DNA of 11,039 nucleotides from Candidatus Altimarinota bacterium. GTDB lineage: Bacteria; Patescibacteriota; Gracilibacteria; JBDHUY01. The position numbers and the translations under genes are program-made. Positions 2,216-11,039 of this stretch are shown in pieces. How positions within the stretch are numbered: position 1 is the first letter of the stretch; each line of letters opens with the position of its first letter. The notes below the pieces were generated by a model. That model was not told where the DNA came from and did no database searches. It was given only the letters and a program-made list of their open reading frames with translations. The stretch is taken from NCBI GenBank assembly GCA_039809385.1, contig JBDHUY010000026.1, positions 1-11,039 on the forward strand, in the 5' to 3' direction.

Positions 2216-4192
2216 CTACGGAGCCAGACTGCGCATATCGATCTTGAGCAGCTGCTGGGGAGTGAGAATATACAGATTTTGTTCGGTATCGTCTACCCAG
2301 AAATCGCGCATTTCGCTGGTTTTCAAGACAAACTGGCGGTCGTACGTCATTTTTTCGGGTTTATCGAACGTGACTTTTTTATAGACCAGCAACCGTTGGT
2401 TGGCCGGATCCATAATATAAATGTTCCGTAAGTTTTCGTTGGTATAGATTTTGGCACGACTGTCGAGATTCTTGAGCGGAACGCTGGGACCGCCTTCTAT
2501 ACTAAAAGGAGCATTTTTCTGACTGAGCAGCCGTTTGACCTCACCGTTGGCTTTTAGAATATAAATACCCCCGTCGATGGCAAACGAAACGGCATCCTTT
2601 ATATCGACATTATCTGTATTATACGCAGTCGGTTTACGATATTTTTGCGTAGTCCGTTCATATCGCCATATATTGTTATTTAAGGGATCCAGCAGATAGA
2701 CAAACTGACGACTGGCATAGGTACGAATATCCACGGCGGTTTTCCAGACAGTATCTTCGGTATCCATAAAGGTCAGATTGTTGTCCTTATATTCAATGAC
2801 TTTATTCCCGCTGCTAAAAAACACCAGACTGTTACGATCGGTAAATTTGTCGGCCGCCAAAAACGTTTCGTTGTTTTCCAGCGACGGTCCTTTACTGAAA
2901 GATTCGGGCGAAGTATCCACAATCGGTCCCCAGACCGAAGTAGGGGTAATGATATAGAACGCGTTATTAAAATTTACCAGATGCGCCGCACTGAAATTCG
3001 CTTCTTTTTTAGAGAGATCGACAAACACAAGCGGATTAGTCAAATTGATAATACGATCGAGTTTCTCTTCCTCCTGCTGGATTTCCTGTAAAATTCTATC
3101 GGCATCGGAAATCAGAACTCCGGCGTTGCGGACATCCAGCACGCTCTTTTTGGCCGTCTCCAGGCTGGTCTTTGAGAGTTTGGCATCATAGAGTCTTTGC
3201 TGGCGGGCGTCGGTCAGACGATCACGCGCGGTCTGAAGCAGTTCTTCATATTTTTTGATATTCTGGTCTTTTTGTCCGCCACCTGAAAATACTGTCGTAT
3301 TGAGCAAAATGAGCGCGACTATCAGGATCGCGCCGACCACCAGATAATTGCGACGTTGTCTGGGATCGCGCATGCCGGCTACCACTTTTTTGGTAATATC
3401 TTTGCTCTTATCAAATGCCTGTTTCGACAGATCCAGCACTTTTTCGGGACTGAGCGAACGGGCGGAGGTTCTTGCGGAGGCAGGTAATGTTTCTTCATCC
3501 GCGGAGGACAGTTGCGACGCGGACAATGCACCCGTAAAACCGTTTACAAGGACATCTCCGGTATCTTCTACCGTCAGGAGCTGCTCCAGATCGCGGAAGG
3601 ATATTTCCAGATCATGCGTAAGGAACACATTGGTCAAATCGGCTTTCCCGACGAATTTTAAAAGCCGCTTGGAGCAGAAGATGACTTTGTCGCCGACCTC
3701 CAAGTCACCACTGGCTATGTTGACAAAATGATTGGCGTCGTTGTTTTTGCCGCTATAGAGACCTTCGCTGATTTCGATCACGTTGCCTTTTCGCAGCAGA
3801 TAACTTTCGGCCAAGCCGGTCTTGGTAAGATACAGGCTGTTTTGATCGAGCAACCCGATAACGGAATCGATTCTGCCGACCTGTCCGGATTCTTTCTTTT
3901 CTTTGAGGTCGTTGAGAAAAAAATTGACCTCTTTGAGACCTTCTTCGAAACGGTCATACATGGATAATTCGTTCTCCTCGGTAATATGTTTTTGCAGGAT
4001 TTCCAAAAAATTCTGAACCATGTTTTGCGGCTCGGCGTCAAACTCGTACCCTTCAATAGCGACGTTCATAAAAAGATGCAGACCGTCGAAATCAAGATGA
4101 TACCCTTTTAAAAAGGCTTTTTTCTCCTTTTCCACGACGAGCGATTTATACACCGGATCAAGTGTCATACGAGGTATATTTAGGGAAGACAT
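2216..4192 (-). CDS. Bitopic membrane protein: degenerate PP2C/SpoIIE-like N-terminal domain, TM helix, helical stalk, C-terminal NHL-like beta-propeller
   Basis: 658-aa ORF. LYLTKTGLAESYLLRKG and GDLEVGDKVIFCSKRL follow PP2C motif spacing. Single TM YLVVGAILIVALILL. Helical/coiled segment, then repeated beta-strand motifs (VYLLDPLNNNIWRY, AVSFAIDGGIYIL, IYIMDPANQRLLVY). The CDS is secure; the domain calls are by eye. Confidence 0.7.
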   Translation of the reverse strand: MSSLNIPRMTLDPVYKSLVVEKEKKAFLKGYHLDFDGLHLFMNVAIEGYEFDAEPQNMVQNFLEILQKHITEENELSMYDRFEEGLKEVNFFLNDLKEKKESGQVGRIDSVIGLLDQNSLYLTKTGLAESYLLRKGNVIEISEGLYSGKNNDANHFVNIASGDLEVGDKVIFCSKRLLKFVGKADLTNVFLTHDLEISFRDLEQLLTVEDTGDVLVNGFTGALSASQLSSADEETLPASARTSARSLSPEKVLDLSKQAFDKSKDITKKVVAGMRDPRQRRNYLVVGAILIVALILLNTTVFSGGGQKDQNIKKYEELLQTARDRLTDARQQRLYDAKLSKTSLETAKKSVLDVRNAGVLISDADRILQEIQQEEEKLDRIINLTNPLVFVDLSKKEANFSAAHLVNFNNAFYIITPTSVWGPIVDTSPESFSKGPSLENNETFLAADKFTDRNSLVFFSSGNKVIEYKDNNLTFMDTEDTVWKTAVDIRTYASRQFVYLLDPLNNNIWRYERTTQKYRKPTAYNTDNVDIKDAVSFAIDGGIYILKANGEVKRLLSQKNAPFSIEGGPSVPLKNLDSRAKIYTNENLRNIYIMDPANQRLLVYKKVTFDKPEKMTYDRQFVLKTSEMRDFWVDDTEQNLYILTPQQLLKIDMRSLAP

Positions 4193-4414: not shown

Positions 4415-5137
4415 ATGAACATGTCCTTATCGTTCCGACCGACCCAGAAGGCTCGGCCGACACACAAACAACAATTGGCCCTGAAAAATATTATCGGTCT
4501 TTATCAGAGACTCAAAGACCCGTGTGTGGCCAAAGCGTCCATCGGGTTGGAGGGGTTGCGTATCGGCGATGCGATTTTGAAACAACGACAGGCGATCGGC
4601 GTCGTCATCGGCGGATTGATGTCGGAAATATGGAACGAAAAAAGTACGGAAGAATCATTTAATAGCCATAAAGATACAGATATTGCTGTGTTGTCGGACA
4701 ATTTCGAACCCGAGACTACCTTTGAGGGCGGCATCGACTGGTGGATCCCTTCGATCAGAAATGTGAATATACGCAGCGACTATAGTAACTATACGACGTC
4801 CATGCAGATCTGGCAGAACGGGAATGAAGTAAATCTGTTCTGCGGATTTACGCTTTTCCCGTATGACTTTGCAAAGCTGCCAGCGGGATTATATCTTCCT
4901 GCCCGCCAACTGGTAATTGACTACCGGGTAGCGATTATGTCAGCCATGCTCGATGAACGGATCCAGCAAGAGGAAGATATAGAAGAATTACTCCAAAATA
5001 GAATAGAACGTGAAACCAGAAAAAGAATTTCGACACAGGTACGGAAACACTACCCCGTTATAAAAGACTGCGCAGTCAGTATTAAACCCTTTGAAAGAGC
5101 GGCTGTTTTAGCATTGGGACAAAAGGAATCGGGCTGA
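4415..5137 (+). CDS. Hypothetical protein with a Pol-beta-superfamily nucleotidyltransferase-like signature
   Basis: 240-aa ORF filling the gap between known genes. VVIGG...HKDTDIAVL...GGIDWW resembles hG[GS]...DhD...hD. The CDS is likely; the function is inferred. Confidence 0.6.
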   Translation: MNMSLSFRPTQKARPTHKQQLALKNIIGLYQRLKDPCVAKASIGLEGLRIGDAILKQRQAIGVVIGGLMSEIWNEKSTEESFNSHKDTDIAVLSDNFEPETTFEGGIDWWIPSIRNVNIRSDYSNYTTSMQIWQNGNEVNLFCGFTLFPYDFAKLPAGLYLPARQLVIDYRVAIMSAMLDERIQQEEDIEELLQNRIERETRKRISTQVRKHYPVIKDCAVSIKPFERAAVLALGQKESG

Positions 5138-8414: not shown

Positions 8415-10601
8415 CTACCTATCCGGCGGCAGATTATAGTAATCGGCCATAAACGTCGCCAGTTCCTGAAAGAGCGGAGCGGCAGTAGCATCACCCCACG
8501 GAGAAGAACGCGGACGGACGATTTTGACGATCATTACCAGTTTTGGATTGTTGGCCGGGAAATAGCCGCCGAAACCGGCGATCGTCGACCCGTTCCCCTC
8601 TTCGAAGCCGGCTTTTCCTTCCAAAGCAATCTGGGCCGTACCGGTTTTCCCGGCCACATAATAATGATCCAGACGGGCTTTCCGGGCCACGCCTTGCTCG
8701 ACTGAACTGATGAGCATCGCGGTCACCGTATCGGCCGTATCTTTGCTGATCACTCGCCGAATAATATCGACTCCGCTTTTTTCACTTTTTCCGTCAGGGT
8801 GAATTACTTCTCTGACAATATGAGGTTGCAGGATAAGCCCGCCGTTCGCCAGCGCGGAATACGAAACAGCCATTTGGAGAGGCGTAACGGTAATTCCTTG
8901 ACCAAAAGAAATAGTAAGCAGATTAGAAGCAGCCCAATTTCGAAAATATTTTAAGAATCCTTTCTCTTCTTCATCCAGTTCCACATCCGTCCGTTCGCCG
9001 AACCCAAAATTAACCAGATAGTTATAGAAGAGACTTTTACCGAGTTTCTTGGCGATCGACGCCATCCCGATATTACAGGAATAATTCAGAGCATGAGTCA
9101 TGTCGTGAGTTCCCAGACACGCCTGAGAAACATTGTGAATCGTATACTCATCTACGGTGAGTTCACCTTTGTCATAATAGGTTGTATTCGGAGATATCTC
9201 GCCAGAATCAATCCCAATTGCCACGGTAACAGGCTTAAAAATAGATCCCGGCTCATAAGGAACACCGACAATCGAATTAAAAAAGACGGAGGGACCAAAC
9301 TTGTTTTCGTATGTAAGATACTTCTTATCACCTAGCTCTTTCAGTACCGTCATGGTCTTACCAGGATCGAAGTTGATCTCTTTAGTTTTATATGCATCTG
9401 AATATTTATTAGGATCAAAGCCCGGATACTGTGCCGATGCGACGATCTCGCCGGTGAAGGGGTCCATGACAATTACCGAGCCGCTGTCGGCACGGTAATC
9501 TTCCACGGCTTTTTTGAGACGTTTTTGAACTTCTGCCTGAACGCCCCGATCAAGGGTAAGCACAATCGAACTCCCGTCTTTGGCGGGCTTGATATTGCTT
9601 TCTCCCACTGTCAGGTTGCGGCCGAACGGATCGCTGGTCGACTCGATTTCTCCTTCCACGCCCCGCAATTCCGCATCAAATTTTCTTTCAATGCCGTATT
9701 GCGGATTGCTTGATGTGTCCATAAATCCCACGATCGAGGCAGCCAGATCGTTTTCCGGATAGAAGCGCCAGTGTTCCGGAACCAGTACTATTCCCTTCAA
9801 TTTCAGAGCTTCGATTTTATCTGATATTTCGGCTTGTAAGCGGTTCGCCAGGGGCACATAACGGGATGACCGGCGAGTAAGTTTGACGATCATGTCGTCG
9901 GTGGAAAAATCCAACAGTGGCGAGAGCTGTGCAGCGACCTGTTCTTTGTTACGGATACGGGTAGGATCGGCAAATATTTCTTCTTTGCTGACGAAAACTC
10001 CTTCGATATTGAGCGATTTCACTTTTTCACGTAAGACTTCGTCTTCGGGTTTCTCGAAATAGAATTTTTTAAACACCACCTTTGTTACCTCTTTTTCGGA
10101 AATTTTGGTATAAATGGTACGAGAAATATCGGCTATCAGTTGGTCTTTTTCTTTGGTAACTTCCTTCTGAATTTCTTTTTTCTGTCCTTTTACCGTGACC
10201 GTTTCGGTAACGAGATTCGTTCCGCCGGTATACTTGTCTACCGCTTTGGTGCAATCCATTTTTTCCAGACCACTACAGATATGCTCGTATATGAGCACAG
10301 AAAGCTTGTCCGCCACGTCCCGTTCGTTTTCCACGAACTGCGGATCCACGTATACCAGATCCTGAGTAATGTTGGTGGCAAGTTTATAATAGCTGCCGGA
10401 ACGCGGATCCTGTAATAAAATCTCGCCCCGTTTGGCCGGAAGTTTGATCGATCCATAGTGTTGCTCGCGGGCCTGATCCGAATAGAATTCGTGCCGCATA
10501 ACCTGCAAATAAAAAAGGCGTCCCAATACCGCGACGAAAAAGACAGAAAAGCCAACAGCTACGATTAAGTAGCGATTTATTTCACGTTTGCGCTTTGTCA
10601 T
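8415..10601 (-). CDS. ftsI: Class B penicillin-binding protein (FtsI/PBP2-type D,D-transpeptidase)
   Basis: N-terminal TM, RLFYLQV, AKRGEI, RFYP, GIE, LTLD and catalytic motifs SxxK (YEPGSIFK), SxN (YSCN) and KTG (GKTGTAQ). ATG 10601 (MTKRK) preferred to TTG 10616 given the promoter position. ftsI versus mrdA assignment is by resemblance. Confidence 0.88.
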   Translation of the reverse strand: MTKRKREINRYLIVAVGFSVFFVAVLGRLFYLQVMRHEFYSDQAREQHYGSIKLPAKRGEILLQDPRSGSYYKLATNITQDLVYVDPQFVENERDVADKLSVLIYEHICSGLEKMDCTKAVDKYTGGTNLVTETVTVKGQKKEIQKEVTKEKDQLIADISRTIYTKISEKEVTKVVFKKFYFEKPEDEVLREKVKSLNIEGVFVSKEEIFADPTRIRNKEQVAAQLSPLLDFSTDDMIVKLTRRSSRYVPLANRLQAEISDKIEALKLKGIVLVPEHWRFYPENDLAASIVGFMDTSSNPQYGIERKFDAELRGVEGEIESTSDPFGRNLTVGESNIKPAKDGSSIVLTLDRGVQAEVQKRLKKAVEDYRADSGSVIVMDPFTGEIVASAQYPGFDPNKYSDAYKTKEINFDPGKTMTVLKELGDKKYLTYENKFGPSVFFNSIVGVPYEPGSIFKPVTVAIGIDSGEISPNTTYYDKGELTVDEYTIHNVSQACLGTHDMTHALNYSCNIGMASIAKKLGKSLFYNYLVNFGFGERTDVELDEEEKGFLKYFRNWAASNLLTISFGQGITVTPLQMAVSYSALANGGLILQPHIVREVIHPDGKSEKSGVDIIRRVISKDTADTVTAMLISSVEQGVARKARLDHYYVAGKTGTAQIALEGKAGFEEGNGSTIAGFGGYFPANNPKLVMIVKIVRPRSSPWGDATAAPLFQELATFMADYYNLPPDR

Positions 10602-10620
10602 ATGAGAGAAAATCAAGGGC

Positions 10621-10649
10621 AGTGTAGCAAAAGGAAGGTCTCATTTCAA
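10621..10649 (-). promoter_or_regulatory. Putative sigma70 promoter for the PBP gene
   Basis: Minus strand TTGAAA (10649-10644), 17-nt spacer ending TGC (extended -10), TACACT (10626-10621). Confidence 0.7.
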
Positions 10650-10667
10650 CTTATTGAATCGGTGTAA

Positions 10668-10696
10668 TTGACTTTGCGCACCAAGATCTATAGTAT
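10668..10696 (+). promoter_or_regulatory. Near-consensus sigma70 promoter driving the tRNA-like repeat array
   Basis: TTGACT (10668-10673), 17-nt spacer, TAGTAT (10691-10696). Back-to-back with the PBP promoter. Confidence 0.75.
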
Positions 10697-10724
10697 GTCA
10701 AAGCAGTTTTTTTGATTATTGTCT

Positions 10725-10795
10725 CGGGGACTGGTTAATTGGTTAGCGCGTCCCGACGTGAGTGTCGGGAAGGCTATGGGTTTAATCCCTGATGC
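10725..10795 (+). pseudogene. Degenerate tRNA-Pro-like sequence, copy 1, anticodon arm replaced by a palindrome
   Basis: CGGGGACTGGTTAATTGGTTAGCGCG (decayed acceptor 5' strand and D arm), hairpin TCCCGAC-GTGAGT-GTCGGGA (10751-10770), then AGGCT-ATGGG-TTTAATC-CCTGA (variable loop and T-arm remnant). Confidence 0.55.
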
Positions 10796-10884
10796 AGTGT
10801 ACGAGAGTAAAGATGTGAGGAATGTTTGATAGATGTATACTATTTGTTTAGAGGTTAGTATTTCGAATTTAGAAATTTTCTCAT

Positions 10885-10956
10885 CGGGGTGTGGCGCAAT
10901 TGGCTAGCGCGTCCCGATGTGAGTGTCGGGAAGGCTATGGGTTTAAGTCCTGATGC
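10885..10956 (+). pseudogene. tRNA-Pro-like sequence, copy 2, anticodon arm replaced by a palindrome
   Basis: CGGGGTG-TG-GCGC-AATTGGCTA-GCGC-G is a typical tRNA-Pro 5' end with an intact D stem. Then TCCCGAT-GTGAGT-GTCGGGA (10912-10931), AGGCT, ATGGG-TTTAAGT-CCTGA. No complementary 3' acceptor strand or CCA. Confidence 0.7.
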
Positions 10957-11039
10957 AGAGTATATGAGGATAAAGATATGAGGAATGTTTGTATAGATGT
11001 ATAGTATTTGTTTAGAGGTTAGTATTTCGAATTTAGAAA

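What the first reader, a model, noticed from the sequence alone, without database searches (positions are those of the whole stretch)
10751..10931. Anticodon arm precisely swapped for a 20-nt palindromic hairpin
Seen: in both copies, the position between the D stem plus G26 and the AGGCT variable loop holds TCCCGAY-GTGAGT-GTCGGGA. A 17-nt anticodon stem-loop belongs there; this is a 7-bp stem with a 6-nt loop (8 bp and 4 nt with a G-U pair). The only difference between copies (C to T) leaves a G-U pair, so the structure is kept while the flanking tRNA parts decay. There is no 7-nt anticodon loop. Inference: a REP-like mobile palindrome has replaced the anticodon arm at exact structural boundaries. 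This suggests structure-targeted insertion (ssDNA/HUH-type) or an anticodon-less tRNA scaffold that displays a protein-binding hairpin.
Basis: partly seen in the sequence, partly recalled or inferred. Interest (0 to 1): 0.75.

Follow-up and report, generated by a model that had tools for sequence, protein, structure and literature searches.

The report
tRNA copies carrying a nuclease-linked hairpin
Broken copies of a proline tRNA gene, repeated in front of the real gene, have had their anticodon arm replaced by a hairpin that recurs in distant bacteria and keeps company with small selfish nuclease genes lodged beside tRNA genes.

Summary
Window 10751-10770 and 10912-10931 hold TCCCGAY-GTGAGT-GTCGGGA where the 17-nt anticodon arm should be. 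Each hairpin sits in a truncated tRNA-Pro(GGG) copy. These are head-to-tail units that run off the contig and end, on contig C20, in the real tRNA-Pro(GGG) gene.

The hairpin did not arise from the local anticodon arm. The same stem, TCCCGAC-N6-GTCGGGR, fills positions 27-43 in pseudo-copies of tRNA-Pro(CGG), Leu(GAG) and Ile(GAT) in this genome. It does the same in pseudo-tRNAs (Ala, Pro, Leu, Arg, Lys) of Bacteroidota and of metagenome contigs, and it also occurs alone.

It travels with single-domain GIY-YIG nuclease genes of about 90 aa that abut tRNA genes:
- The module "GIY-YIG ORF + hairpin-swapped partial tRNA" is found in this genome, in other genomes of its phylum and in a Draconibacterium.
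- 18 of the 20 closest nuclease homologues fetched lie beside a tRNA gene.

The closest known system is Ssn/SRM: GIY-YIG single-strand nucleases with flanking hairpin repeats. The published SRM motif does not fit this hairpin, and tRNA is not mentioned in that paper.

My reading is that the window holds nuclease-less, non-autonomous units of such a tRNA-associated element, co-transcribed as a leader and not working as tRNAs. The mechanism is inferred.

The parts
10668..10696 (+). Promoter-like site (TTGACT, 17 nt, TAGTAT) about 30 nt upstream of the first unit. It is a candidate start for a transcript that runs through the array into the tRNA-Pro genes.
   Evidence: Consensus scan: 2 sites found in the region against 1.1 expected. 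This is a consensus match only.
10725..10792 (+). Unit 1: diverged 5' copy of tRNA-Pro(GGG). It has the acceptor 5' strand, a decayed D arm, the hairpin, the AGGCT variable loop and a degenerate T arm, but no 3' acceptor strand.
   Evidence: Sequence, BLAST of the unit (C26:10737-10875, 91%), and the fold.
10751..10770 (+). Hairpin 1, TCCCGAC-GTGAGT-GTCGGGA, in place of tRNA positions 27-43.
10793..10884 (+). Spacer 1 between units. The same spacer sequence directly precedes the real tRNA-Pro(GGG) on C20.
   Evidence: No similarity to GIY-YIG genes was found.
10885..10953 (+). Unit 2. Positions 1-27 are identical to the real tRNA-Pro(GGG). They are followed by the hairpin, AGGCT and a T-arm-like ATGGGTTTAAGTCCTGA, but no 3' acceptor strand.
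   Evidence: 27/27 identity; tRNA model 18.2 bits. In one search, after 10911 some contigs continue with the real anticodon arm instead.
10912..10931 (+). Hairpin 2, TCCCGAT-GTGAGT-GTCGGGA. The T at 10918 makes a G-T/G-U pair.
   Evidence: The run contigs read C at 10918 in X1, X2 and X4.
10954..11039 (+). Spacer 2, which runs to the contig end. It is identical to C20:1-85. The array continues there with a third unit (C20:95-249), then the real tRNA-Pro(GGG) at 259-335 and tRNA-Pro(TGG) at 443-519.
   Evidence: The joint 11004 to 10841 is.

Best explanation
The two hairpins belong to a dispersed family of 20-nt palindromes, TCCCGAC-N6-GTCGGGR, which I call P1.

I read P1 as the cis-acting DNA hairpin of a family of small selfish cassettes. 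Each cassette encodes a single-domain GIY-YIG nuclease of about 90 aa and lodges at tRNA genes.

Where the cassette is intact, it lies inside a partial direct duplication of the tRNA gene. One copy stays whole and functional. The partial copy carries the element's hairpin where its anticodon arm was, or in some relatives in the D loop or the anticodon loop.

The window holds nuclease-less units of this kind, that is, non-autonomous or solo units. Each unit is tRNA-Pro(GGG) positions 1 to about 60 with P1, plus a spacer. The units are amplified head to tail in front of the real tRNA-Pro(GGG)/tRNA-Pro(TGG) genes. They cannot act as tRNAs and are probably just transcribed as a leader.

Shown:
- the anatomy of the units and the array;
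- the recurrence of the hairpin at the same slot in different tRNA isotypes and phyla;
- its physical linkage with GIY-YIG ORFs;
- the position of those ORFs against tRNA genes.

Inferred:
- By analogy with Ssn nucleases, the nuclease binds the hairpin in single-stranded DNA and nicks just upstream of it, that is, in tRNA positions 1-26.
- Such a nick favours recombination in the tRNA-homologous segment. That outcome inserts the cassette while keeping one tRNA copy intact.
- The tRNA sequence serves as the portable homology that lets the cassette move between genomes.
- The arrays grew by repeated recombination or unequal crossing-over.
For: 1. Same hairpin, same slot, different tRNAs in this genome.
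- Pro(CGG)-like units at the start of C25, loops GGAAGC and GCTACC.
- Two Pro(CGG)-like 3' copies on C20, loop GCTCCC.
- Leu(GAG)-like units at the end of C18 and the start of C17, loop CGAAGC.
- An Ile(GAT)-like copy at C23:18151-18215, loop GGTAGC.
- The flanks of each match its own neighbouring real tRNA.
- All 13 complete sites with a 6-nt loop in G000 are in tRNA-like contexts.

2. The hairpin is a repeat family beyond this genome.
- 19 of 301 genomes of the phylum hold it, against control-pattern hits in 2.
- 5 of 5 Bacteroidota genomes reached through loci hold 1-6 sites each, with control 0.
- tRNA-like contexts occur in 7 of 118 genome-contig loci, all Bacteroidota.
- They also occur in at least 7 of 49 metagenome loci.

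3. Linkage to GIY-YIG.
- The ORF at C20:25171-25434 is a GIY-YIG domain (Pfam E 2.9e-13).
- Its 3' end runs into a tRNA-Pro fragment that starts in the D loop and carries P1, and this occurs twice on C20.
- The same module is present in Draconibacterium loci L146 and L154.
- In L179 a 50%-identical ORF is bracketed on both sides by a two-hairpin module that contains P1, next to tRNA-Asp.

4. The 20 best homologue loci in the phylum.
- 18 of 20 hold a tRNA gene beside the ORF.
- In 10 of 20 the ORF's stop codon lies inside the tRNA, and in 6 of them at positions 8-9.
- 10 of 20 hold CCSGAY...RTCSGG hairpins, against 0 of 20 in reversed controls.
- 7 hold a tRNA copy whose anticodon arm is swapped for such a hairpin. 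L276 has two tandem units of [swapped tRNA-Ala copy + GIY ORF] in front of the real tRNA-Ala.

5. In G000 at least 6 of the 12 GIY-YIG matches lie directly beside a tRNA or tmRNA gene.

6. Precedent. Ssn nucleases are single-domain GIY-YIG proteins of about 94 aa. They bind hairpin repeats in ssDNA, cut a few nucleotides upstream, and have genes flanked by the repeats like an IS. This comes from PMC11893778, of which I read Results part 1, the Discussion and found passages.

7. No tyrosine recombinase lies on the contigs that carry the arrays. The RAYT-like ORF has a different repeat.
Against: - The window itself holds no GIY-YIG gene.
- Its spacers show no similarity to GIY-YIG genes (all E at least 0.95), so descent of these units from a nuclease-bearing cassette is not shown.
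- Most stand-alone P1 copies have no GIY-YIG gene nearby. Of the phylum loci L158-L182, only L179 does.
- At genome level the association is weak. 15 of 19 P1-positive genomes have a homologue, against 161 of 282 P1-negative ones, and related genomes are not independent.
- The published SRM motif does not fit P1. It gives 8 hits in G000 against 5-11 in controls, and none contains P1.
- Membership of the nuclease in cd10448 could not be tested. The nearest solved relatives are UPF0213 proteins.
- P1-like hairpins also sit as Stem III of weak T-box-like leaders and in terminator-like settings. That would also fit a generic stable hairpin or an RNA-level role.
- Many of the hairpin instances were found with patterns that fix the stem, so stem conservation in alignment A1 is partly built in.
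- No nuclease activity, excision product or empty site was observed.
Confidence: 0.55

Rival explanations
1. P1 is an autonomous REP-like or mini-MITE palindrome. It spreads by some other route, such as an unknown enzyme, template switching or short-patch gene conversion between stem-loops. It preferentially replaces stem-loops in dispensable structured-RNA genes. On this reading its nearness to GIY-YIG genes is incidental, because both pile up at tRNA flanks.
For: - Most P1 copies in other genomes of the phylum stand alone, without a GIY-YIG gene within about 1.5 kb.
- P1-like hairpins take the place of Stem III in T-box-like leaders (L160, L220, L224 and L242).
- They also appear in terminator-like sites (L168, L173, L226, L237 and L241).
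- A second palindrome, TCCGCCGCGGCGGA, is dispersed at about 20 sites in G000 and also sits in the pseudo-tRNA-Met and pseudo-tRNA-His copies.
- In the pseudo-tRNA-Phe copies the D and T arms are replaced by other hairpins.
Against: - The module of GIY-YIG ORF plus P1-swapped tRNA fragment is conserved between two phyla.
- Related hairpins occur in 10 of 20 GIY-YIG loci, against 0 of 20 reversed controls.
- Each GIY-YIG subfamily of G000 has its own flanking repeat, as expected of cognate pairs.
- No other candidate enzyme was found. The RAYT-like ORF has its own repeat.
Confidence: 0.25
2. The units act at the RNA level. They form a tRNA-like leader whose constant hairpin binds a protein or shapes the processing, stability or dosage of the downstream tRNA-Pro transcripts, or of the nuclease mRNA where one is present.
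For: - The array lies between a promoter-like site and the tRNA genes on the same strand.
- Many copies have T...G ends, which pair as U-G only on the tRNA-sense strand, and a semi-conserved asymmetric loop N-G-N-A-N-C.
- The hairpin is more stable as RNA, -11.6 kcal/mol.
- It occupies structural slots of RNAs, namely the anticodon arm and T-box Stem III.
Against: - The hairpin occurs in both orientations relative to the tRNA-like flanks. The loop GCTACC at C25:669 is the reverse complement of GGTAGC at C23, and GCTCCC follows the GIY ORFs.
- No Rfam family covers it.
- The units lack a 3' acceptor strand and cannot form the tRNA L-shape.
- Relatives in the same class lack it: 0 of 40 with the strict pattern.
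Confidence: 0.12
3. The units are ordinary decaying tandem duplicates of tRNA-Pro. On this reading the hairpin arose locally from the anticodon arm by mutation and its palindromy is chance.
For: - Partial tRNA copies of many kinds flank real tRNA genes in this genome.
- Unit 1 is visibly decayed in its D arm.
Against: - The real arm CATGCATGGGGTGCATG (17 nt) and the hairpin (20 nt) share no alignable sequence.
- The same 7-bp stem occurs in copies of three other tRNAs here and in other phyla.
- Chance expectation in the window is 0.00.
Confidence: 0.03

Closest known systems
Ssn nucleases and their NTS/SRM hairpin repeats (Chenal et al. 2025, Nat Commun 16:2388, PMC11893778; I read Results part 1, the Discussion and found passages)
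   Same: - A single-domain GIY-YIG protein of about 90-110 aa.
- Cognate hairpin repeats of 20-50 nt that flank the gene, like IS ends, and also occur as many solitary copies.
- Different homologues have different hairpins.
- P1 shares a TCCCG...CGGGA core with the NTS printed in that paper.
- Two other G000 GIY-YIG genes (C8:94290 and C12:34554) are flanked on both sides by repeats beginning CGTCATT, like the NTS 5' flank.
   Different: - P1 does not fit the published SRM search motif and lacks its conserved 5' flank.
- The elements here are embedded in partial tRNA duplications, with the hairpin in the place of a tRNA arm and the ORF abutting a tRNA gene.
- The word tRNA does not occur in that paper's main text. 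Its supplements were not seen.
- Family membership (cd10448) and ssDNA cutting were not tested here.
REP/BIME palindromes with RAYT (IS200/IS605-like HUH) transposases (general knowledge, recalled, and as discussed in PMC11893778)
   Same: - Short GC-rich extragenic palindromes, dispersed and mostly solitary.
- They are thought to be handled as single-stranded hairpins by a linked nuclease or transposase gene that they flank.
   Different: - The linked gene here is GIY-YIG, not HUH.
- The genome's RAYT-like ORF is flanked by a different repeat, GGTTCCAAGTTGYACTTGGAACC.
- REPs are not known to me to replace tRNA arms.
Free-standing GIY-YIG homing endonucleases in tRNA gene clusters, such as phage T4 SegB (PMC2330249; search listing and abstract only)
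   Same: A GIY-YIG nuclease gene placed among tRNA genes and inherited together with the tRNA region.
   Different: - By my recollection, Seg proteins are larger multi-domain enzymes that cut double-stranded DNA.
- I know of no hairpin repeats, partial tRNA duplications or arm replacement for them.
Integrase-borne genomic islands and prophages at tRNA genes (general knowledge, recalled)
   Same: Partial direct repeats of a tRNA gene bracket the inserted DNA while one intact tRNA copy is kept.
   Different: - There is no integrase on the contigs concerned.
- The partial copies here are mostly 5' parts lying upstream of the intact gene.
- The repeated units are only 150-165 nt.
- The anticodon arm is replaced by a constant palindrome.

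Membership tests
tRNA (Rfam RF00005; ARAGORN) | A cloverleaf that reaches the model's gathering score, with a 5-bp anticodon stem and a 7-nt loop | tested here: not met
   18.2 bits against a cut-off of 29, E 0.4, for unit 2 only. Rfam at gathering score finds 0 matches. ARAGORN finds 0 genes in the window.
tRNA (Rfam RF00005; ARAGORN) | An acceptor stem formed by paired 5' and 3' ends | tested here: not met
   The sequence after the T-arm-like part (TGATGCAG...) is not complementary to CGGGGTG, and the folds show no acceptor helix for unit 2.
Ssn/SRM system (PMC11893778) | A single-domain GIY-YIG protein of about 94 aa | tested here: met
   The C20 ORF is 88 aa, and Pfam GIY-YIG covers residues 4-73 at E 2.9e-13. 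Six such ORFs in G000 align with the motif residues kept. None lies in the window itself.
Ssn/SRM system (PMC11893778) | The gene is flanked by its hairpin repeat, on one or both sides | tested here: met
   P1 lies 3' of both C20 ORFs, with a P1 array on the 5' side. Both sides are flanked in L179 and L273.
Ssn/SRM system (PMC11893778) | The repeat fits the published SRM search motif HGTCWYN(0-2)YYVSBRHN(0-5)WNVSBRGN(0-2)RNCYNB | tested here: not met
   8 hits in G000 against 5-11 in five Markov controls, and none contains P1.
Ssn/SRM system (PMC11893778) | The protein belongs to CDD family cd10448 | not testable with these tools
   No CDD search is on hand. The nearest solved sequences are the UPF0213 proteins 1zg2 (E 2.5e-7) and 1ywl.
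Ssn/SRM system (PMC11893778) | Binds the hairpin as ssDNA only and cuts a few nucleotides upstream | not testable with these tools
   This needs a biochemical assay.
REP/RAYT | A RAYT (Y1 HUH) gene flanked by the same palindrome | tested here: not met
   There is one weak Y1_Tnp match (22.7 bits). That ORF is flanked by a different repeat.
Integrase att site at a tRNA gene | A tyrosine or serine recombinase gene adjoining the partial tRNA repeat | tested here: not met
   The two Phage_integrase matches in G000 are on C2 and C3, not on C17, C18, C20, C23, C25 or C26. Serine recombinases were not searched.
Intrinsic terminator | A GC-rich hairpin followed by a run of T | tested here: not met
   Both window hairpins are followed by AGGCTATGGG. 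The terminator scan of 10550-11039 lists neither of them. Some P1 copies elsewhere do have T runs.

The most novel reading that the evidence does not exclude
A previously undescribed class of tRNA-gene-homing selfish elements, shared by Patescibacteria-like bacteria and Bacteroidota.

In it, a minimal GIY-YIG nuclease uses a tRNA-shaped stretch of single-stranded DNA as the scaffold that presents its recognition hairpin in the anticodon-arm slot. The nuclease would nick just 5' of that hairpin, or of the natural anticodon hairpin in an empty tRNA gene. The highly conserved tRNA sequence would then serve as the universal homology arm for copying the cassette in. One tRNA copy is always left intact, and the nuclease ORF ends on the tRNA's own U8-A9-G10 as its stop codon.
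Probability: 0.2. Interest if true: 0.85.

Novelty: new variant of a known kind. Interest (0 to 1): 0.66.

Why it matters
Several consequences follow if the reading holds.

- **Annotation.** It would explain a recurrent puzzle: partial tRNA copies, "tRNA-???" calls with odd anticodon loops, and contig breaks at tRNA genes in small-genome bacteria and Bacteroidota.
- **Range of the Ssn/hairpin-repeat paradigm.** It would extend that paradigm to new phyla and to a new niche, tRNA genes. This is a bacterial counterpart to tRNA-targeting mobile elements of eukaryotes.
- **Biology of Ssn-like enzymes.** It would give these recently discovered single-strand nucleases a concrete role as selfish elements, which that paper left open.
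- **A testable substrate.** It supplies natural nuclease/hairpin pairs with a defined structured flank for biochemical tests.
- **Assembly.** These arrays break the assembly. C26, C20, C25, C17 and C18 all end in them.

Tried and rejected
**Tested and not supported**
- The spacers of the window array as remnants of a deleted GIY-YIG gene. blastn-short of four spacers against 11 GIY-YIG gene regions gave only 7-13-nt matches with E at least 0.95, and the spacer frames are full of stops.
- HUH/RAYT as the partner. The RAYT-like ORF has its own repeat.
- An integrase att site. No recombinase lies on the relevant contigs.
- The published SRM motif. It shows no enrichment and no overlap with P1.
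- A described RNA family. Rfam finds nothing at gathering score in the window. With E-value thresholds, the window end, seven Bacteroidota loci and six further loci gave only tRNA and weak chance-level hits. Two weak T-box-like hits (24 and 27.5 bits, cut-off 93) are the exception.
- A phage origin. There are only 8 loci in viral contigs, mostly in GC-rich contigs, and one is terminator-like.

**Uninformative tests**
- Covariation test on the hairpin. Alignment A1 is 24 rows picked out of 29 contexts, namely those 20 nt long. It shows 94% pairing but only 2 pairs with a change on both sides, no better than shuffles. The rows were found with patterns that fix the stem, so the test says little.
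- Close relatives. 0 of 40 genomes, 39 of the same class and one of the same family, have the strict tRNA-context pattern. No empty-site comparison was therefore possible.

**Sequencing runs**
- 14 DNA runs hold part of the stretch, and no RNA holder is listed.
- Only contigs could be laid, so depth is not a copy number.

**Literature**
- Searches for "Bacteroidete tRNA" (0 papers), tRNA pseudogene / anticodon arm / palindrome, GIY-YIG with COG2827/YhbQ/UPF0213, GIY-YIG with tRNA genes, Bacteroidetes and mobile (0 papers), and GIY-YIG with tRNA adjacency phrases found no description of hairpin-swapped tRNA copies. The library lacks most subscription journals.
- My recollection of a "Bacteroidete tRNA motif" could not be checked.
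- Supplementary data of PMC11893778 were not seen. They may list such genomes or contexts.

**Other**
- No structure prediction or complex job was run.
Full report
**What is in the window.**
- The last 320 bases hold two head-to-tail units.
- Each unit starts like tRNA-Pro: CGGGG..., a D arm, then GCGCG. The 20-nt palindrome TCCCGAY-GTGAGT-GTCGGGA follows, at 10751-10770 and 10912-10931. After that come the variable loop AGGCT and a degenerate T arm. Then comes 85-95 nt of spacer, not a 3' acceptor strand.
- The pattern is expected 0.00 times by chance in the window.
- Both copies fold as predicted, whether as DNA or as RNA, with z about -3.5.
- ARAGORN and Rfam call no tRNA. The tRNA model reaches 18.2 bits against a cut-off of 29.
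- The rest of the window is housekeeping: PBP2-like, PrmC-like, S1, holB-like and TPR genes.

**The array and its end.**
- The window is contig C26 of a 1.87-Mb, 26-contig genome.
- Its last 85 bases equal C20:1-85. C20 then holds a third unit (95-249, 99% identical), the real tRNA-Pro(GGG) at 259-335 and tRNA-Pro(TGG) at 443-519.
- Unit 2 is 27/27 identical to positions 1-27 of the real gene.
- The spacer in front of the real gene is the same as the spacer between units.
- Contigs of public runs from two studies join 11004 back to 10841, confirming the 164-nt period. Other contigs continue after 10911 with the real anticodon arm.
- A promoter-like site lies at 10668-10696.

**The swap is systematic in this genome.**
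- A second array lies at the start of C25 (minus strand) and runs into the end of C20. Its units of about 147 nt are copies of tRNA-Pro(CGG) cut off in the T loop. They carry TCCCGAC-GGAAGC-GTCGGGG in the anticodon-arm slot, and the array ends in the real tRNA-Pro(CGG).
- Downstream of tRNA-Leu(GAG), units at the end of C18 and the start of C17 carry TCCCGAC-CGAAGC-GTCGGGG between the D arm and the long variable arm.
- Between the 16S gene and tRNA-Ile(GAT) on C23, a copy carries TCCCGAC-GGTAGC-GTCGGGG.
- In each case the flanks match the neighbouring real tRNA and only positions 27-43 are replaced.
- All 13 complete sites with a 6-nt loop in the genome are in such contexts.
- The hairpin occurs in both orientations relative to the tRNA sense. 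For example, GCTACC at C25:669 is the reverse complement of GGTAGC.
- Other partial tRNA copies (Met, His, Phe, Asp, Ser, Leu-CAA) carry other palindromes. One is TCCGCCGCGGCGGA, which is dispersed at about 20 sites.

**Beyond this genome.**
- The 16S gene is 71.7% identical to that of a Flagellimonas. The genomes of the phylum sample are 0.4-2.1 Mb, so this is a Patescibacteria-like organism, though I was not given its name.
- None of 40 relatives, 39 of the same class and one of the same family, has the strict pattern.
- 19 of 301 genomes of the phylum have TCCCGAC-N6-GTCGGGR, against 2 with the control pattern. One 0.7-Mb genome has 9 sites.
- In those genomes most copies stand alone. Some are in two-hairpin modules or terminator-like sites.
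Most were chance hits in GC-rich genomes. Seven loci, all Bacteroidota, showed the hairpin in the anticodon-arm slot of partial or whole tRNA-like copies beside real tRNA-Ala, Pro, Leu, Ser and Ile/Ala genes.
- Five such genomes hold 1-6 sites each, with control 0.
- A metagenome scan gave 49 loci. They include tRNA-Arg(CCG)-, Ala- and Pro-like contexts.
- Viral contigs gave 8 loci.
- No Rfam family covers the hairpin.

**The link to GIY-YIG genes.**
- Directly 3' of the real tRNA-Pro(CGG) lies an 88-aa ORF with a GIY-YIG domain (Pfam E 2.9e-13). Its end runs into a tRNA-Pro fragment that starts in the D loop, carries the hairpin and keeps a good T arm and CCA end.
- The ORF-plus-fragment pair occurs twice on C20.
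- G000 has 12 GIY-YIG matches. One is the 632-aa UvrC-like ORF. At least six of the small ones lie directly beside a tRNA or tmRNA gene.
- The small proteins align with the catalytic motifs kept.
- The same ORF-plus-hairpin-swapped-fragment module is present in Draconibacterium.
- In one genome of the phylum, a 50%-identical ORF next to tRNA-Asp is bracketed on both sides by a two-hairpin module that contains the hairpin.
- Homologues occur in 176 of 301 genomes of the phylum.

**The 20 best homologue loci.**
- 18 have a tRNA gene beside the ORF.
- In 10 the ORF's stop codon lies inside the tRNA gene, and in 6 at positions 8-9, the conserved TAG.
- 10 hold CCSGAY...RTCSGG hairpins, against 0 in reversed controls.
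- 7 hold tRNA copies whose anticodon arm is replaced by TCCCGAC-N6-GTCGGGG or by the shorter [TC]CCCGAT-N4-ATCGGG[AG]. In others, hairpins of the same kind sit in the D loop or the anticodon loop of the copy.
- L276 shows two tandem units of [swapped tRNA-Ala copy + ORF] in front of the real tRNA-Ala. That is the same layout as the window's array, but with the nuclease gene present.

**Comparison with what is known.**
- Chenal et al. 2025 (PMC11893778) describe Ssn. These are single-domain GIY-YIG proteins of about 94 aa (cd10448).
- They bind hairpin repeats (NTS, SRM) only as single-stranded DNA and cut a few nucleotides upstream.
- Their genes are flanked by the repeats like an insertion sequence, and different homologues have different hairpins.
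- This matches the pairing seen here, and each GIY-YIG subfamily of G000 has its own flanking repeat.
- The hairpin nevertheless fails the published SRM motif, and I could not test cd10448 membership. The nearest solved relatives are UPF0213 proteins.
- That paper's main text never mentions tRNA.
- My five literature searches found no description of arm-swapped tRNA copies.

**Reading.**
- I take the hairpin to be the cis element of a tRNA-associated GIY-YIG cassette, and the window units to be nuclease-less derivatives amplified in tandem.
- The proposed mechanism is a nick in single-stranded DNA just 5' of the hairpin, followed by recombination within tRNA positions 1-26, so that one intact tRNA always remains. 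The tRNA sequence acts as portable homology. All of this is inference.
- Points against: the window has no nuclease gene and its spacers show no trace of one. Most solitary hairpins have no nuclease nearby. The genome-level association is weak, 15 of 19 against 161 of 282. The hairpin also fills Stem III of weak T-box-like leaders.
- A free-living REP-like palindrome, or an RNA-level role, therefore remain live rivals. Local decay by point mutation is excluded.

Noticed in passing
G000 contigs C1, C2, C3, C5, C6, C7, C10, C13, C25 (e.g. C25:18137, C2:171292): A 14-nt perfect palindrome, TCCGCCGCGGCGGA (or ...GCAGA), is dispersed at about 20 sites. It is often inside longer inverted repeats (caaatgacaa...ttgtcatttg) or A-run/T-run terminator-like flanks. 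It also sits just after the anticodon loop in partial copies of tRNA-Met and tRNA-His.
   Followed up: partly
G000 C2:139916-140566 and flanks 139500-140760: A 216-aa ORF has a weak Y1 transposase match (22.7 bits) and an H-I-H motif. It is flanked on both sides by several copies of its own hairpin repeat, GGTTCCAAGTTGYACTTGGAACC, so it looks like a RAYT/REP pair.
   Followed up: partly
G000 C5:19444-19616 (minus strand); also L160, L220, L224, L242: Weak T-box-leader-like matches (24.2 and 27.5 bits, cut-off 93) in which a TCCCGAC...GTCGGGR hairpin aligns exactly with Stem III, just before the GGGUGGAACC box. The downstream gene was not identified.
   Followed up: partly
G000 C8:28413-28628 (minus), next to the tmRNA at C8:28716-29154: A small GIY-YIG ORF lies 88 nt downstream of the tmRNA gene. 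ARAGORN's tag peptide for this tmRNA is unusually long and odd (GVKDRIGNYFDRWITFRISSMILA), and the gene is called at 439 nt.
   Followed up: no
G000 C8:94100-94700 and C12:34350-34950: Two longer GIY-YIG ORFs (109 and 98 aa, 48% identical) are flanked on both sides by repeats that begin CGTCATT. This resembles the 5' flank of the Neisseria NTS printed in PMC11893778. They look like classical Ssn-type gene/repeat pairs and are not next to tRNA genes.
   Followed up: partly
G000 C4:123000-123110 and C11:16680-16790: About 110 nt right after the CCA end of tRNA-Tyr and of tRNA-Val are conserved between the two loci. The stretch starts with the hairpin CATTCTTCGC...GCGAAGAATG. Each is followed by a GIY-YIG ORF, which is frameshifted on C11.
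   Followed up: no
G000 C11:24398-24551: Partial copies on both sides of tRNA-Phe keep the anticodon arm but have the D arm and T arm replaced by other hairpins.
   Followed up: no
Loci L260, L261, L266, L271, L272, L276 (other genomes of the phylum): The GIY-YIG ORF ends on the TAG formed by tRNA positions 8-10 of the following tRNA gene, so the last residues of the protein are encoded by the tRNA's acceptor strand.
   Followed up: yes
L107 (Haliscomenobacter), L146/L150 (Draconibacterium), L152: Some hairpin-swapped copies are complete cloverleaves that ARAGORN reports as tRNA-??? with four-letter anticodons (aggc, aaaa, ctta). In L107 they score 34 bits on the Rfam tRNA model, and their 5' half looks Pro-like while the 3' half equals the neighbouring tRNA-Ala.
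   Followed up: partly
window 2216-4189 (minus) and 4415-5134 (plus): Two long ORFs (657 and 240 aa) have no Pfam match at E 1e-5.
   Followed up: no
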